DNA of 34,338 nt from Myxococcales bacterium (GCA_038231075.1 JBBRMA010000057.1:1-34338), one strand, 5' to 3'. Counted from the stretch's first letter, positions 4,328 through 12,608 are shown. Numbers and translations are program-made. The notes: generated by a model not told the origin, from the sequence alone.

Positions 4328-5323
4328 TCAGCGGCGGGGAAGGCCGGGCGCCGGGTGCTGCAGATAGGCCAGCCGCTTCGACTCGCGACGCACGTGCCCG
4401 ACCAGATCGAGGATCAGCCCGGTGACCAGACAGAGCGCCGAGATGACGCCGATCCCACTGCAGAGGATGGCGGTGGGAAAGCGGCGCACGAGGCCCGTGT
4501 CGAAGTACTCCAAGATCAGCGGCACGCCGAGCGCGGCAGCAGTGCCGGCGAGGACCAGGGCGATGAGCGCGAAGAACAGCAGCGGGCGCTCGTTGCGCAG
4601 GAGGTTTGTGATGGTCACAAGGATCTGCCAGCCGTCGTGCCAGGTGCGCAGCTTGCTCGCCGAGGCCGGCCCGCGCGCGATGTAGTTCGCGTCGAGCTCG
4701 GCGGTGGCCATCCGCAGCTGCAGCGCGTGCACGGTGAGCTCGGTCTCGATCTCGAACTCGCGCGCCGACGAAGTAAAGCTCTTGGCAAACCGCTGCGAGA
4801 CCACCCGGTAGCCGCTCAGCATGTCTCCGAGCGGCGCGCCGAAGAGCCGCGCCACAAGCCCCGTCAGCACCCGGTTGCCGAGCCGGTGCCCCGCGCGAAA
4901 GGCCCCCTGCCCTGTCTCGATCCGGCGGCCGACCACCATGTCGAGCTGGTCGGCAAGCAGCCGCTCGACCAGCGCCGGCGCGACTCTGGCATCGTAGGTG
5001 CCGTCGCCATCCACCATCAAATACAGGTCTGCCTCGACGTCCTGAAACATCCGGCGCACGACGTTGCCCTTGCCCGGCATCGGCTCGCGACGCACCACCG
5101 CGCCCGCGGCGGCCGCGAGCTTCGCGGTGTCGTCGTTCGAGCCATTGTCGTAGACGTAGATGGTCGCCGCCGGCAGCGCGGCGCGAAAGTCGGCGACGAC
5201 CTGGGCGATCGCCACCGCCTCGTCGAGGCAGGGGACTAACACCGCGATTGCTAATCCGGAGACCGCAGCTCCTCTCGCACTCCATTGGGCGTAGCTCCGC
5301 CCGCGACGCCCTGCAGCGACCAC
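4328..5323 (-). CDS. Family-2 glycosyltransferase of the GtrB/DPM1/ArnC-like polyprenyl-phosphate sugar transferase type, with two C-terminal TM helices
   Basis: VLVPCLDEA...YVYDNGSNDDT...MVDGDG motifs. The C-terminal hydrophobic helices are LLFFALIALVLAGTAAALGV and ILCSGIGVISALCLVTGLIL. The annotated start is GTG 5323, which overlaps the upstream ABC gene by 73 nt. An alternative is GTG 5242. Confidence 0.75.
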   Translation of the reverse strand: MVAAGRRGRSYAQWSARGAAVSGLAIAVLVPCLDEAVAIAQVVADFRAALPAATIYVYDNGSNDDTAKLAAAAGAVVRREPMPGKGNVVRRMFQDVEADLYLMVDGDGTYDARVAPALVERLLADQLDMVVGRRIETGQGAFRAGHRLGNRVLTGLVARLFGAPLGDMLSGYRVVSQRFAKSFTSSAREFEIETELTVHALQLRMATAELDANYIARGPASASKLRTWHDGWQILVTITNLLRNERPLLFFALIALVLAGTAAALGVPLILEYFDTGLVRRFPTAILCSGIGVISALCLVTGLILDLVGHVRRESKRLAYLQHPAPGLPRR

Positions 5324-7146
5324 AGCTTCGCGTAACGGCCCTGCAGGCGCAGCAGCTCCTCGTGGGTCCCGAGCTCGGCGATGCGGCCCTGGTCGAGCAC
5401 ACCGATCTGGTCCACGCCCTCGAGGGTCGAGAGCCGGTGCGCGATCACCAGCGTCGTCCGGCCTTGCCGGGCCTCGTCGAGCGCCGCCTGCACCAGCCGC
5501 TCGGAGGCCGAGTCGAGCGCGCTGGTGGCCTCATCGAGGATGAGGATGTCCGGCTCGCCGAGCAGCGCCCGGGCGATGGCCAGCCGCTGCCGCTGGCCTC
5601 CCGAGAGCAGGACACCCCGATCGCCGATCCGCGTCTCCATCCCCTCCGGCAGCCGGTCGATGAACTCGAGCGCGTGCGCCCGCCGCGCCGCCTCCCGGAC
5701 CGCAGCATCGGTCGCCGCCGGCCGCCCGTAGGCGAGGTTGTGGCGGATGGTGGTGTTGAAGAGGAAGGTCTCCTGGCTGACCACCGCGATCGAGCGCCGC
5801 AAGCCGCGCAGCTCGAGCTCGCGCAGGTTCAGGCCGTCGAGCGCGATCTGTCCGCCGCTCGGATCGTAGAGGCGCGCCAGCAAGAGCCCCACCGTGGTCT
5901 TGCCCGAGCCGGAGACACCGACCAGCGCCACCGTCTGGCCGCGCGGGATGGTCAGGTCGAAGTCGCGCAGCACCGGCGCGCTGGCCCCAGGATAGGTGAA
6001 CTCGACGTGGCGGAACTGGATCTCGCGCTGGAGGCGCTGCCGGGTGCGCGAGCCGCTGCGCAAGAATGGCTTGTCCTCGCGGGAGAGGAACGCCGCGGTC
6101 CGGCTGCGGGCGCTGGCGAGCGCGGCGAGCTGGGTTCGCAGGTCGCTGACCTCCTTGGCCACTGGCAGCGCGCGGAAGAGCAGGACCAGGTAGGTGAAGA
6201 GCAGCGTCGAGAGGACGCCGACCTCCTGCGCGAAGAAGAGCTTGCCGAGCGCCACCGTGGCGCAGAGCGCAAGCAGCGTCGAGACCTCGCTCACCGGGCC
6301 GACGGCGACGTAGGCGGCGAAGCTGCGCAGCTCGATCTCCTCGCGCTTGCGGGAGAGGGCGTTGATGCGGAGCGCCTCCTCGTCCGCCGTGCCCGCCGCC
6401 TGGACCAGCCGGATGCCGGAGAGCGTCTCGAGCAGCGCGTGGGCGTAGTCGCTCGAACGCTCCGAGAGGTAGCCGCCCATGCGCCGGGCATGCCGGATGA
6501 ACCAGTGGTTGGCGGAGATGACCACCGCGAGGAGCAGGAGCGAGACGAGGGTGAGCTTCCAGGAGAGGAGCAGCATCAAGGCGAGGAAGACGGCGAGGGC
6601 GGCGCCCGCGACCACCATCCGGAGCACGATCAGCACCGCGGAGGCGGTCTGCAGCGTCTCCCAGTTGATGCGCTGGATGAGCTCGGCGACCTTTACGCGA
6701 GTGTAAAAATCGACGTCCACCGCCAGCACCAGGCGGATGGCGCGCTCGCGCAGGTCGCAGGTGATCTCGCGGCGCAGGCGGCCGGCCGCGTAGGTGCTGC
6801 CAAAGCCCGTGGCATTCTTGAGGACCAGGCACGCGAGCACGACGGCGAAGAGAACTGCGGAGCGGGTCTGGCCGGCGGCCCCGGCGAAGGCGCCGAGCAG
6901 GTGCTGCACGAACCTCGACCCCCCGGGCAGGGAGATCTCCTGGCCGAGGAAGCCGAGGAAGAGCGGGACCAAGAGGGTGACGCCGATGCCGTTGAGCAGC
7001 GCGCCGGCAAAGCCGAGCACCAGCGACAGCCCCACCAGCACACGGTGGGGACGCGCCGCCGACCAGAGCAGCGAGGAGGAGTCCGCGCCGGGTACGGGTG
7101 GCAGGCCAGAAGGCCCGTCTGCGCTGGTCGCCTGGCCCGCGGTCAC
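5251..7146 (-). CDS. ABC exporter, fused permease and ATPase, of the MsbA/type-I exporter kind (~631 aa)
   Basis: Six-helix TMD, then Walker A GVSGSGKTT, ABC signature LSGGQRQR and Walker B ILILDEATSALD. The ORF track runs to 8061 only because the GC-rich frame lacks stops. I placed the start at GTG 7146, which has GGGGAGA 5-6 nt upstream and sits 15 nt after the upstream GT2 stop. Confidence 0.8.
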   Translation of the reverse strand: MTAGQATSADGPSGLPPVPGADSSSLLWSAARPHRVLVGLSLVLGFAGALLNGIGVTLLVPLFLGFLGQEISLPGGSRFVQHLLGAFAGAAGQTRSAVLFAVVLACLVLKNATGFGSTYAAGRLRREITCDLRERAIRLVLAVDVDFYTRVKVAELIQRINWETLQTASAVLIVLRMVVAGAALAVFLALMLLLSWKLTLVSLLLLAVVISANHWFIRHARRMGGYLSERSSDYAHALLETLSGIRLVQAAGTADEEALRINALSRKREEIELRSFAAYVAVGPVSEVSTLLALCATVALGKLFFAQEVGVLSTLLFTYLVLLFRALPVAKEVSDLRTQLAALASARSRTAAFLSREDKPFLRSGSRTRQRLQREIQFRHVEFTYPGASAPVLRDFDLTIPRGQTVALVGVSGSGKTTVGLLLARLYDPSGGQIALDGLNLRELELRGLRRSIAVVSQETFLFNTTIRHNLAYGRPAATDAAVREAARRAHALEFIDRLPEGMETRIGDRGVLLSGGQRQRLAIARALLGEPDILILDEATSALDSASERLVQAALDEARQGRTTLVIAHRLSTLEGVDQIGVLDQGRIAELGTHEELLRLQGRYAKLWSLQGVAGGATPNGVREELRSPD

Positions 7147-7160
7147 CGAGTCTCCCCTTC

Positions 7161-12433: not shown

Positions 12434-12512
12434 AGGATCGACTTGTCGTGCGAAGACCCGCTTTGATCGACGCCACTTCACGCCACTGCCTGCCGCCCGA
12501 GGAAGGAAGAGC

Positions 12513-12608
12513 TTGCGCGCTTCGCTGAAGACCAGGCTGTCCGGCCTCGTGCGCTGGCCAGCGCTGGCTGCGCTCGGATTGATGGCGCTCCAGGTCGCGC
12601 TCCTCTGA
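12513..12608 (+). CDS. Candidate small ORF (31 aa, MRASLKTRLSGLVRWPALAALGLMALQVALL) with a basic N-terminus and hydrophobic tail
   Basis: TTG start 3-6 nt after a strong SD-like GGAAGGAAGAG. Third-position GC is ~85%, consistent with coding. It is short and has no homology support. Confidence 0.2.
   Translation: MRASLKTRLSGLVRWPALAALGLMALQVALL

What the first reader, a model, noticed from the sequence alone, without database searches (positions are those of the whole stretch)
4328..12608. PqqD, HprK-like kinase, nucleotidyltransferase, four GT2s and an ABC exporter, with no lasso cyclase, peptidase or annotated precursor
Two divergent operons together encode:
- a PqqD-family RRE protein;
- an HprK-C-like P-loop kinase;
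- a PF14907-type nucleotidyltransferase;
- three soluble family-2 glycosyltransferases (two clearly paralogous);
- a GtrB/DPM1-like membrane glycosyltransferase;
- an MsbA-type ABC exporter.
PqqD + HprK-like kinase + NTP_transf_5 is the accessory set seen around kinase-bearing lasso-peptide clusters. Here the defining lasso enzymes (Asn-synthetase-like cyclase, transglutaminase-like leader peptidase) are absent from ~12 kb on either side. Glycosyltransferases dominate instead.
This fits the bioinformatically defined but uncharacterised 'HprK-related kinase / PqqD' systems. It suggests a phosphorylated and/or glycosylated peptide, or a lipid-linked glycoconjugate, that is assembled and exported. 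The product and substrate are unknown.
Basis: partly seen in the sequence, partly recalled or inferred. Interest (0 to 1): 0.85.

Follow-up and report, generated by a model that had tools for sequence, protein, structure and literature searches.

The report
Peptide-chaperone, kinase and sugar-transferase cassette
This is one copy of a very widespread but unstudied gene cassette in which a small peptide-binding protein carries its own binding motif on a conserved tail, next to a kinase, sugar-adding enzymes and (here) an exporter; it probably builds a phosphate- and sugar-bearing product, but the product and substrate are unknown.

Summary
Seven pass curated Pfam thresholds. The kinase passes none, but its predicted fold and catalytic motifs place it in the PEPCK/HprK family. 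No lasso cyclase, lasso peptidase or signal-peptidase-like protease lies in the window or in about 90 related loci.

The core is strongly conserved across phyla: PqqD-type peptide-recognition protein (RRE), kinase, 2-4 small family-2 glycosyltransferases (GT2) and an NTP_transf_5 protein. It occurs in Dehalococcoidia, Thermodesulfovibrionales, cultured cyanobacteria and a probable myxobacterium (this window). The MsbA-type exporter recurs in 6 of 24 long loci. The membrane GT2 is unique to this window.

New finding: the RRE protein has a C-terminal tail more conserved than the RRE itself, FxxPx[L/V]...[T/S]D[L/M]...DP[I/V]H[D/E]V...GWP. It begins with the spacing of the lasso/LPP leader motif [Y/W]xxPx[L/V]. 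AlphaFold places it confidently as a paired beta-strand, most simply against the RRE sheet. No separate precursor gene is conserved.

The closest known system is the linear polyphosphorylated peptide (LPP) family of Bacillota (Nat Commun 2026). This cassette lacks its peptidase and free precursor and has GT2s as core genes. I rate it a new variant of a known kind. The acceptor and the chemistry remain unknown.

The parts
9941..10414 (-). RRE (PqqD-family, lasso-B1-type) protein with a C-terminal conserved tail; 157 aa from the ATG at 10414, which has a GGAGG ribosome-binding site. The public collection calls it as 155 aa from 10408.
   Evidence: PF05402 scores 30.9 bits against GA 23.4. Foldseek's best matches are the lasso B1 protein TbiB1 (5v1v/5v1u; TM-score normalised to target length 0.85-0.91; 24-26% identity). 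Start codon.
10139..10396 (-). RRE winged-helix domain (about residues 5-90 of the 155-aa form).
   Evidence: AF2 pLDDT is above 90, with strands at 6-8, 13-18, 21-26 and 31-36 and three helices. A genuine cyanobacterial lasso B1 detects the RRE domain of 49 related loci by tblastn.
9944..10063 (-). Conserved tail: F116-E-A-P119-S-V121 (leader-like FxxPxV), strand 120-124, helix 127-133, then the invariant D134-P-V-H137-D-V...G143-W-P145 and a variable 10-residue end.
   Evidence: F116 is nearly invariant (at least 90%). P119, D126, D134, P135, H137, V139, G143, W144 and P145 are invariant. 157 of 172 representatives at 50% identity or less match the full motif. AF2 gives pLDDT 91 for residues 111-120 and a DSSP strand at 120-124. 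No Pfam or NCBIfam model covers it.
8820..9980 (-). P-loop kinase of the PEPCK/HprK fold (386 aa). Pfam's new 'ScmC' family (PF27840) hits relatives only faintly.
8108..8842 (-). Small soluble GT2 (E, 244 aa), a core cassette member.
   Evidence: PF00535 scores 110 bits. It scores 332 bits against the cassette GT2 HMM. DAD motif present.
7161..8111 (-). Soluble GT2 (D, 316 aa), conserved only in the closest relatives.
   Evidence: PF00535 scores 69 bits. Orthologues at 60% identity in L001 and 53% in L008. Its start overlaps the stop codon of E.
5251..7146 (-). MsbA/HepA-type ABC exporter with fused transmembrane and ATPase domains (631 aa); a recurrent accessory.
   Evidence: PF00664 and PF00005 hits. 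HepA_fam_ABC scores 493 bits and MsbA 437 bits, both below their cutoffs. Comparable exporters sit next to the cassette in L056, L072, L081, L091 and L092. The protein exists in the public collection with exactly these ends.
4328..5323 (-). Membrane-anchored GT2 of the polyprenyl-phosphate (AglJ/DPM1/GtrB-like) type (331 aa); a locus-specific accessory.
   Evidence: PF00535 scores 43.6 bits. TIGR04182 (AglJ) scores 188 bits against a cutoff of 325. Two C-terminal hydrophobic helices at 245-274 and 281-312. No homologue in any other locus.
10415..10532 (.). 118-bp divergent intergenic region between the two operons; presumed promoters.
   Evidence: Position follows from the gene calls. No sigma-70 consensus match was found there, so this part is inferred.
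10533..11228 (+). Small soluble GT2 (H, 231 aa), a paralogue of E and a core cassette member.
   Evidence: PF00535 scores 108 bits. 42-44% identical to E. 308 bits against the cassette GT2 HMM.
11225..12433 (+). NTP_transf_5 nucleotidyltransferase-fold protein (402 aa), a core cassette member.
   Evidence: PF14907 scores 114 bits against GA 31.2. The TTG start overlaps the stop codon of H. The same 402-aa protein is in the public collection. Homologues occur in most long loci.

Best explanation
**What it is.** The window holds a member of a large, uncharacterised cassette family. Its core has four parts:
- a lasso-B1-type RRE protein whose own C-terminal tail starts with a leader-like FxxPx[L/V] motif;
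- a PEPCK/HprK-fold P-loop kinase;
- two to four small soluble GT2 glycosyltransferases;
- an NTP_transf_5 protein.

In this genome the operon also carries an MsbA-type exporter and a polyprenyl-phosphate-type membrane GT2.

**How I think it works.**
- The RRE domain binds its own FxxPxV segment in cis, as a beta-strand added to the edge of its sheet. This step is predicted, not shown.
- That fixes the following helix and exposes the invariant, flexible DPxHDV...GWP end.
- The self-loaded RRE protein then acts as the tethered substrate or scaffold, or at least as the adaptor, for the kinase, NTP_transf_5 and the GT2s.
- By analogy with phosphorylated lasso peptides, pseudomycoidin and LPPs, these enzymes would install phosphate and then sugars, giving a phospho-glycan.
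- The ABC transporter, where present, exports the product. The membrane GT2 would supply a lipid-linked sugar for a further extracytoplasmic step.

**Shown:** gene content, folds, catalytic motifs, cassette conservation, tail conservation.

**Inferred:** cis binding, the order of reactions, phospho-glycan chemistry, export. The acceptor residue is unknown.
For: **Cassette conservation**
- The kinase's relatives always sit beside an RRE-tail gene and GT2s.
- In 80 metagenome loci found through the RRE, 59 have at least 500 bp downstream. In 54 of those 59 a cassette gene starts within 300 bp, and 49 of 59 have the kinase within 2.5 kb.
- All 7 loci with large flanks have the RRE, the kinase and 2-4 GT2s.
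- The cassette occurs in Dehalococcoidia and cyanobacteria.
- Natural fusions exist: three RREs plus kinase, kinase plus GT2, and RRE plus kinase.

**Family size**
- 1,166 representatives (50% clusters) at E<=1e-30, all of the top 150 spanning the tail.
- At least 3,984 clusters (90% identity) at E<=1e-10.

**Tail motif**
- Among the 157 representatives that match the motif pattern, the aromatic position is F/Y/W in 155. The +5 position is L/V/F/I/M in all 157, as the search pattern requires. The DP[IV]H[DE]...GWP block is invariant in the alignments.
- The spacing equals the [Y/W]xxPx[L/V/I/F/A] RRE-binding motif of lasso and LPP leaders (PMC13381572).

**RRE type**
- It is lasso-B1-like (Foldseek TbiB1; NF033536 is the best NCBIfam model; tblastn with a genuine lasso B1).

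**Cis binding**
- AF2 gives pLDDT 91 for residues 111-120 and about 81 for 121-130, with a DSSP strand at 120-124. The linker and residues 134-155 have low confidence. A DSSP strand needs a partner, and the RRE sheet is the only one in the model.
- In multi-RRE proteins, 28 of 42 repeats are followed by the motif, against 14% in shuffled controls.

**No separate precursor**
- No small ORF is conserved across the nine loci compared for small ORFs. The clustering of 22 long loci covered only ORFs of 90 aa or more, so it cannot speak to short ORFs.

**Chemistry precedent**
- HprK-like kinases phosphorylate lasso and LPP precursors.
- The nucleotidyltransferase PsmN adds hexose to the phosphate (PMC8498205; PMC13381572).

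**Export**
- MsbA-type exporters lie beside the cassette in this window and in L056, L072, L081, L091 and L092.
Against: - No hydroxyl residue is universally conserved in the tail. The T/S before the invariant Asp is present in 130 of 157 representatives. Loci with A, N, D or E at that position (L009, L010, L030, L062, L058, L042, L038, L065) keep the kinase, and L009, L010 and L030 keep the whole set.
- The substitutions at that position (T, S, D, N) also fit a simple helix N-cap.
- 28 of 82 tails have no S/T/Y after GWP.
- An invariant 'core' is atypical for RiPP natural products.
- Cis binding rests on one AF2 monomer model. Only its secondary structure and confidence could be read; contacts could not.
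- NTP_transf_5 was inactive in the only LPP reconstitution, so its chemistry is known from a single in vivo study.
- The core cassette often lacks any exporter (L001, L002, L009, L010).
- The kinase as a whole resembles PEPCK more than HprK, so a non-protein phospho-acceptor cannot be excluded.
Confidence: 0.4

Rival explanations
1. Classical RiPP logic in trans. An unlinked or overlooked precursor peptide is the real substrate. It displaces the tail or binds alongside it. The conserved tail is only a docking or autoinhibitory element that recruits the kinase, GT2s and NTP_transf_5.
For: - No invariant Ser/Thr/Tyr in the tail.
- RiPP cores are normally variable, whereas this tail is invariant.
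- LPP and lasso systems use separate precursors.
- In multi-RRE proteins the FxxPxL motif recurs without the GWP part, so the two halves of the tail have separable roles.
Against: - No small ORF is conserved across the nine loci compared for small ORFs; the clustering of 22 long loci only covered ORFs of 90 aa or more.
- The Dehalococcoidia 77-aa ORF is lineage-specific.
- AF2 predicts the RRE groove to be occupied in cis.
- No leader peptidase is present anywhere.
Confidence: 0.25
2. Not a peptide pathway. The cassette makes or decorates a lipid-linked or soluble glycan, such as a phosphorylated oligosaccharide or polysaccharide. The PEPCK-like kinase phosphorylates a sugar or lipid. The self-complemented RRE protein is a structural or regulatory subunit.
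For: - The neighbours are often envelope-glycan genes. These include a Wzx-like flippase translationally coupled to a kinase in L004, ABC2 plus Wzy_C plus GT4 in L003, epimerases, and MsbA/PglK-like exporters.
- This window has an AglJ-like polyprenyl-phosphate GT2.
- The kinase's whole-protein fold is closest to PEPCK, a small-molecule kinase.
- LPP and paeninodin clusters also sit inside capsule loci.
Against: - In Dehalococcoidia the five-gene core sits among housekeeping genes, with no envelope genes nearby.
- The accessory glycan genes differ from locus to locus.
- RRE domains are known only as peptide binders.
- At sequence level the catalytic motifs match the protein kinase HprK/P.
Confidence: 0.2
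3. A tailoring set for, or a decayed remnant of, a lasso peptide cluster that lies outside the window.
For: - The RRE is of the lasso-B1 type.
- The left flank of the window is only 4.3 kb.
- In Kamptonema a genuine lasso B1+B2 pair lies 9.3 kb upstream of the cassette.
- LPP clusters often co-localise with lasso clusters.
Against: - A lasso B2 query finds nothing in the other 92 sequences searched (91 loci plus the window, 629 kb in all).
- No Asn-synthase-like or transglutaminase-like Pfam family appears in the window or in the Pfam-annotated long loci other than Kamptonema's L091, where a B2 lies 9.3 kb upstream.
- In Kamptonema, housekeeping genes (glnA, a phycobilisome protein) separate the two.
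- A family of thousands of clusters with an invariant tail is under its own selection.
Confidence: 0.05

Closest known systems
Linear polyphosphorylated peptide (LPP) RiPP clusters of Bacillota (Popov et al., Nat Commun 2026, PMC13381572)
   Same: [quoted passage not shown]
- A leader motif with aromatic-xx-P-x-[V/L] spacing.
- Genomic association with glycosyltransferase- and polysaccharide-rich loci.
- The final product is unknown there too.
   Different: - No SpI-type leader peptidase.
- No free precursor gene; the leader-like motif is fused to the RRE protein itself.
- The aromatic residue is mostly Phe, not Tyr.
- Two to four small GT2s are core members.
- Found outside Bacillota (probable Myxococcota, Chloroflexota, Cyanobacteria, Thermodesulfovibrionales).
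- The kinase is only remotely similar at sequence level.
Phosphorylated and phosphoglycosylated lasso peptides (paeninodin; pseudomycoidin PsmK/PsmN)
   Same: - B1-type RRE.
- An HprK-homologous kinase that phosphorylates a precursor Ser.
- A nucleotidyltransferase-family protein that adds hexose to the phosphate (PMC8498205).
   Different: - No cyclase (C), no B2 peptidase and no lasso precursor.
- The acceptor is not a conserved C-terminal Ser.
- Dedicated GT2s are present.
HprK/P (HPr kinase/phosphorylase) and PEPCK
   Same: - The His, Walker-A and Asp-Asp catalytic signature.
   Different: - Below every curated HMM cutoff.
- A PEPCK-like two-domain architecture.
- The partner is an RRE protein, not HPr.
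NCBIfam 'HPr-rel-A' (TIGR04352/TIGR04353) and SynChlorMet (ScmC/ScmD) cassettes
   Same: A PqqD-family protein paired with a distant HprK relative; both were defined bioinformatically.
   Different: - Scores fall far below the cutoffs.
- No radical-SAM partners.
- Those models do not include the tail.
Engineered leader-fused RiPP enzymes (constitutively activated by a leader fused in cis; recalled from the literature, not checked here)
   Same: The leader motif is covalently tethered to the protein that recognises it.
   Different: Here the fusion is natural, conserved in thousands of sequence clusters, and sits on a stand-alone RRE rather than on a catalytic enzyme.

Membership tests
Lasso peptide biosynthetic cluster | Asn-synthetase-like macrolactam cyclase (C protein) | tested here: not met
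   No such Pfam family appears in any well-supported ORF of the window or in the Pfam-annotated related loci.
Lasso peptide biosynthetic cluster | Transglutaminase-like leader peptidase (B2) | tested here: not met
   No Pfam hit in the window. tblastn with a genuine cyanobacterial B2 finds nothing in the window or in the 91 other loci (629 kb in all).
Lasso peptide biosynthetic cluster | B1-type RRE that binds a YxxPxL leader | tested here: met
   The fold is closest to TbiB1 and FusB1. The best NCBIfam model is lasso_PqqD_Bac, but the window protein scores only 24 bits against a cutoff of 80. The motif is present, but in cis.
LPP RiPP family (PMC13381572) | SpI (SipW-like) leader peptidase LppS | tested here: not met
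   No signal-peptidase Pfam family in the window ORFs. No recurrent peptidase family among the 22 long loci.
LPP RiPP family (PMC13381572) | Discrete precursor LppA with the YxxPxVLxHQxIxFETxxS leader and a phospho-acceptor Ser at core position 3 | tested here: not met
   No conserved small ORF. Only the FxxPxV part of the motif is present, fused to the RRE. No conserved Ser.
LPP RiPP family (PMC13381572) | RRE + HprK-like kinase + NTP transferase + MsbA-like exporter | tested here: met
   Whether LppN belongs to PF14907 was not verified.
HPr-rel-A system (TIGR04352 kinase A / TIGR04353 PqqD) | Scores above the curated NCBIfam cutoffs | tested here: not met
   TIGR04352 scores 21.4 bits and TIGR04355 17.6 bits, both against cutoffs of 200. 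TIGR04353 does not hit the window RRE.
SynChlorMet cassette (ScmC/ScmD plus two radical SAM/SPASM proteins) | ScmC and ScmD above cutoff, with radical-SAM partners | tested here: not met
   PF27840 is only faint or weak on relatives. TIGR04249 scores 10.8 bits on a fusion relative. No radical-SAM gene is a cassette member.
HprK/P-PEPCK kinase superfamily | PEPCK-like fold with a His, Walker-A GxxGxGKS/T and Asp-Asp catalytic core | tested here: met
   [not shown]
HprK/P-PEPCK kinase superfamily | Kinase activity and acceptor identity | not testable with these tools
   Needs a biochemical assay.
GT2 glycosyltransferases (PF00535) | GT-A domain above the Pfam threshold, with a DxD motif | tested here: met
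   Four proteins score 43.6-110 bits against GA 23.3. DAD or DGD motifs are present.
NTP_transf_5 (PF14907) | Domain above the Pfam threshold | tested here: met
   114 bits against GA 31.2.
Type IV (MsbA-like) ABC exporters | Fused ABC_membrane and ABC_tran domains | tested here: met
   PF00664 scores 65 bits and PF00005 110 bits. The protein is below the equivalog cutoffs for MsbA and HepA, so its substrate is unassigned.

The most novel reading that the evidence does not exclude
The RRE-tail protein is a self-priming carrier. It is a peptide-recognition domain that has captured its own leader motif. The small protein itself then becomes the scaffold on which a kinase, a nucleotidyltransferase-fold enzyme and GT2s build a phosphodiester-linked glycan. 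That glycan may sit on an unusual acceptor within the invariant DPxHDV...GWP segment. This would be a protein-primed, RiPP-derived route to a phosphoglycan or glycoconjugate, present in thousands of bacterial lineages.
Probability: 0.25. Interest if true: 0.85.

Novelty: new variant of a known kind. Interest (0 to 1): 0.66.

Why it matters
RREs are the main handle for class-independent RiPP genome mining. They are assumed to bind a separate precursor peptide. A family of thousands of sequence clusters in which a lasso-type RRE carries its own leader-like motif would change that picture. It has no precursor gene and no peptidase. Such loci would need to be read differently, and they would extend the phospho-peptide logic just described in Bacillota to at least three phyla named in source records, plus a probable myxobacterium. 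The family may also link RiPP-type recognition to glycan assembly or export. Members occur in cultured cyanobacteria such as Kamptonema formosum, so the question can be tested directly.

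Tried and rejected
- **Genome-contig scans.** Both scans, one with the kinase alignment and one with the single protein, confirmed no relatives. Species-level distribution therefore came only from names in the protein collection.
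- **afdb50 fold library.** Unavailable.
- **First all-vs-all ORF comparison.** Run without composition correction, it gave only high-GC artefacts. It was repeated with correction.
- **Candidate precursors, all rejected.**
  - ORFs in the weakly coding stretch 12434-13333 are not conserved in relatives.
  - The 77-aa Cys-rich ORF upstream of the Dehalococcoidia cassette is lineage-specific.
  - The '70-aa ORF' in L007 is the tail of a frameshifted RRE gene.
- **Thr125 as the universal phospho-acceptor.** Rejected, because loci with A, N, D or E at that position keep the kinase.
- **A conserved C-terminal Ser, as in paeninodin.** Rejected.
- **Literature searches.** Searches for PF14907/PF27840, SynChlorMet/HPr-rel-A and the tail motif strings found nothing relevant.
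- **Rfam and promoter/terminator scans.** They added nothing.

Full report
**1. What is in the sequence**

The window is about 70% G+C, so raw ORF lists are full of shadow ORFs. Third-position GC frame analysis and start-codon inspection give one unambiguous layout.

| Gene | Coordinates | Strand | Size |
|---|---|---|---|
| RRE/PqqD | 9941-10414 | - | 157 aa |
| kinase | 8820-9980 | - | 386 aa |
| GT2-E | 8108-8842 | - | 244 aa |
| GT2-D | 7161-8111 | - | 316 aa |
| ABC exporter | 5251-7146 | - | 631 aa |
| membrane GT2-B | 4328-5323 | - | 331 aa |
| GT2-H | 10533-11228 | + | 231 aa |
| NTP_transf_5 | 11225-12433 | + | 402 aa |

- The six minus-strand genes overlap or nearly abut one another (the largest gap, between GT2-D and the exporter, is 14 nt). 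The plus-strand pair starts 118 bp away, and those two genes also overlap.
- Pfam confirms PqqD, four GT2s, ABC_membrane plus ABC_tran, and NTP_transf_5, all above their gathering thresholds.
- E and H are paralogues (42-44% identity). D is more distant. B has two C-terminal membrane helices, and its best NCBIfam match is AglJ, a polyprenyl-phosphate glycosyltransferase.
- A myxobacterial Cys-rich-repeat lipoprotein (TIGR04201) just downstream suggests a Myxococcota host.
- No Asn-synthase-like cyclase, transglutaminase-like peptidase or signal-peptidase-like protease is encoded by any well-supported ORF in the 34 kb.
- Only 4.3 kb lies to the left of the cluster.

**2. The kinase**

It has no PF07475 hit, and it scores only 21 and 18 bits against HprK_rel_A and HprK_rel_B, whose cutoffs are 200. 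It is nevertheless a real member of the PEPCK/HprK kinase superfamily.
- A 21-sequence alignment shows invariant H173, G191-S-G-K-S195, D217-D218 and K267.
- The AlphaFold model is confident (pLDDT 87.7).
- The family profile's best PDB sequence hits are HprK/P crystal structures, aligned across the His, Walker-A and Asp-Asp core.

**3. Conservation**

- Relatives of the kinase at 30-65% identity are always flanked by an RRE gene upstream and small GT2 genes downstream. An NTP_transf_5 gene is usually adjacent.
- I searched independently with the RRE and annotated 80 metagenome loci with my own HMMs. 59 loci have at least 500 bp downstream.
- In 54 of those 59, a kinase, GT2 or NTP_transf_5 gene starts within 300 bp. 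49 of 59 have the kinase within 2.5 kb.
- All 7 loci with large flanks carry the RRE, the kinase and 2-4 GT2s.
- The same core sits among pyrimidine-biosynthesis and other housekeeping genes in Dehalococcoidia.
- In the cultured cyanobacterium Kamptonema formosum it appears as RRE, kinase, three GT2s, MsbA-type ABC and NTP_transf_5.
- Natural fusions tie the parts together: RRE plus kinase, three RREs plus kinase, kinase plus GT2, and methyltransferase plus kinase.
- Accessory genes vary. They include MsbA-type exporters (this window, L056, L072, L081, L091, L092), ABC2/Wzy, Wzx flippases, epimerases and GT4s.
- GT2-D occurs only in close relatives. The membrane GT2-B occurs only here.
- No peptidase or lasso gene recurs. 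A genuine lasso B2 sequence finds nothing in the other 92 sequences searched (91 loci plus the window, 629 kb in all).

**4. The unexpected part: the RRE tail**

The RRE protein is about 150 aa, not about 90. After the winged-helix domain and a low-complexity linker comes a segment of about 35 residues that is more conserved than the domain itself. In this window it reads PFEAPSVETFTDLKFLLNADPVHDVEASGWP.

*Family size*
- A profile search of 1.84 billion representative proteins found 1,166 representatives at E<=1e-30. All of the top 150 span the tail.
- A second search found at least 3,984 clusters at 90% identity.

*Motif*
- 157 of 172 mutually dissimilar sequences match [F/Y/W]xxPx[L/V/I/F/M]-xxx-x-D[L/M]xxLxxxDP[I/V]H[D/E]-x-xxx-GWP. 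The residue after H[D/E] is almost always V.
- The aromatic position is F in 136 and Y in 17. The residue before the Asp is T or S in 130.
- No Pfam or NCBIfam model covers the tail. No paper in the searchable library contains the motif strings.

*Link to lasso and LPP leaders*
- The first six residues have exactly the spacing of the [Y/W]xxPx[L/V/I/F/A] motif through which lasso and LPP leader peptides bind their RREs (PMC13381572).
- This RRE is of that type. Its best structural matches are the lasso B1 proteins TbiB1 and FusB1 in complex with their leaders. Its best NCBIfam model is lasso_PqqD_Bac. A genuine cyanobacterial lasso B1 detects it by tblastn.

*Structure prediction*
- AlphaFold, given 23 homologues, leaves the linker and the last 20 residues at low confidence.
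- It places residues 111-130 at pLDDT 81-91, with a DSSP beta-strand at 120-124 directly after FxxP, followed by a helix at 127-133.
- A DSSP strand requires a partner, and the only sheet in the model is the RRE's. The simplest reading is that the tail occupies the leader-binding edge in cis. I could not read coordinates, so this remains an inference.

*Modularity*
- In multi-RRE proteins, 28 of 42 repeats are followed about 20 residues later by the motif, against 14% in shuffled controls. Only one repeat per protein carries the full GWP ending.
- RRE plus FxxPxL therefore behaves as one module. DPxHDV...GWP behaves as a separate functional end.

**5. Is the tail the substrate?**

This is unresolved.
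- *For:* no separate small ORF is conserved across the nine loci compared for small ORFs; the clustering of 22 long loci only covered ORFs of 90 aa or more. Three candidate ORFs were examined and rejected.
- *For:* the cassette has no leader peptidase. The RRE groove appears to be self-occupied.
- *Against a simple Ser/Thr target:* the T/S position is A, N, D, E, Q or R in a minority of sequences. Eight such loci (A, N, D or E) keep the kinase, and L009, L010 and L030 keep the whole set. One third of tails have no S/T/Y after GWP.
- The T/S/D/N pattern also fits a helix N-cap. From memory, HPr Ser46 likewise caps a helix. That is a lead, not a test.
- The invariant residues are Asp, Pro, His, Val, Gly and Trp. 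If the tail is modified at a conserved site, the chemistry would be unusual.

**6. Most likely mechanism**

I favour the following (confidence about 0.4).
- The RRE protein is a self-loaded adaptor or scaffold. Cis binding of FxxPxV fixes the tail and presents its invariant end to the kinase, NTP_transf_5 and the GT2s.
- HprK-like kinases phosphorylate lasso and LPP precursors. The nucleotidyltransferase PsmN adds hexose to that phosphate in pseudomycoidin. By that precedent, these enzymes would build a phosphate-linked glycan.
- GT2 enzymes of the DPM1/GtrB/AglJ type glycosylate a phosphate acceptor. This is general knowledge of the family, not tested here.
- In this genome the co-transcribed MsbA-type transporter would export the product. 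The AglJ-like enzyme would supply a lipid-linked sugar.

The rivals are:
- a trans precursor, with the tail serving only as a docking element (0.25);
- a glycan or lipid pathway in which the RRE is merely a subunit (0.20);
- a satellite of a distant lasso cluster (0.05).

**7. Comparison with known systems**

- The closest is the LPP family published in May 2026. It comprises an RRE (LppB), an HprK-like kinase (LppK), an NTP transferase (LppN), an MsbA-like pump (LppD), an SpI-type peptidase (LppS) and a free precursor (LppA). It is restricted to Bacillota and embedded in glycosyltransferase-rich capsule loci, and its final product is unknown.
- The present cassette shares four of those components and the leader-motif spacing.
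- It fails two defining features, the peptidase and the free precursor. It adds GT2s as core genes, fuses the motif to the RRE, and is found in other phyla.
- I therefore class it as a new variant of a known kind.

**8. Verdict**

- Interest is moderately high.
  - The cluster type is now partly anticipated by the LPP work.
  - The widespread RRE with its own leader-like tail, and the absence of any precursor or peptidase, appear to be undescribed.
  - Both can be tested in culturable cyanobacteria.

Noticed in passing
window 3039-4226 (-): A 395-aa lipoprotein lies 101 bp downstream of the operon on the same strand. It has four Cys-rich repeats (TIGR04201 / DUF7107) separated by poly-Pro linkers, and a weak DUF2278-like C-terminal domain. 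It may be co-transcribed. Whether it is a glycosylation target is unknown.
   Followed up: partly
window 14747-15646 (+) and 15702-19283 (-): An ECF-sigma-like protein and a 1193-aa Ser/Thr kinase with TPR repeats form a divergent pair. The same pair lies directly beside the cassette in the closest relative (L001 5501-9444; the sigma-like proteins are 40% identical). They may be regulators of the cassette.
   Followed up: partly
window 12434-13333: About 900 bp with weak coding signal and locally lower GC. One frame reads like a Tyr/Asn-rich protein fragment (...NYGYYSDNNYPHNVYYGKPPAPAGDIYG...) without a clear start codon. It is not conserved in related loci and may be a gene remnant.
   Followed up: partly
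window 136-2670 (-): An 844-aa uninterrupted ORF with GC3 of 0.93 but inverted GC1/GC2 (0.49/0.63). It has no Pfam hit. It is unclear whether it is a real compositionally unusual protein or a shadow of broken plus-strand genes.
   Followed up: no
window 13334-14608 (-): A 424-aa protein with only a weak resemblance to endo-beta-N-acetylglucosaminidase H (E 4e-4). It is a possible glycan hydrolase near the cluster.
   Followed up: no
window 33516-34331 (-): A weak, below-threshold resemblance to Pretoxin-HINT and intein-splicing domains at the window edge, next to a 1302-aa protein made of Big_7 repeats (29207-33115). This looks like a polymorphic-toxin-type neighbourhood.
   Followed up: no
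L091 1-674 (Kamptonema formosum GCA_000332335.1): A genuine lasso B2 (Transglut_core3) plus B1 pair lies 9.3 kb upstream of the cyanobacterial cassette. glnA, a phycobilisome gene and GTPase genes separate them. This echoes the reported co-localisation of LPP and lasso clusters, but it was seen in only this one locus.
   Followed up: partly
P0063-P0075, L063, L070: Some proteins have two or three tandem RRE modules. In some of them (about 780-850 aa) these are fused to the kinase. Only one module per protein keeps the full ...GWP tail. The module nearest the kinase is the most degenerate.
   Followed up: partly
L004 / L005 / L006: A variant locus has two kinase paralogues, two NTP_transf_5 genes, a Wzx-like flippase translationally coupled to one kinase, and an ATP-grasp protein.
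   Followed up: no
L009 9542-9775 and L010 9543-9776: A conserved 77-aa Cys-rich ORF (CxxC...CCxxCxxxxxC) lies about 225 bp upstream of the Dehalococcoidia cassette. It is not found in other lineages.
   Followed up: partly
L007 9580-9973: The RRE gene of this long-read metagenome contig is split by a frameshift, so its tail was called as a separate 70-aa ORF. This is probably an assembly error.
   Followed up: yes
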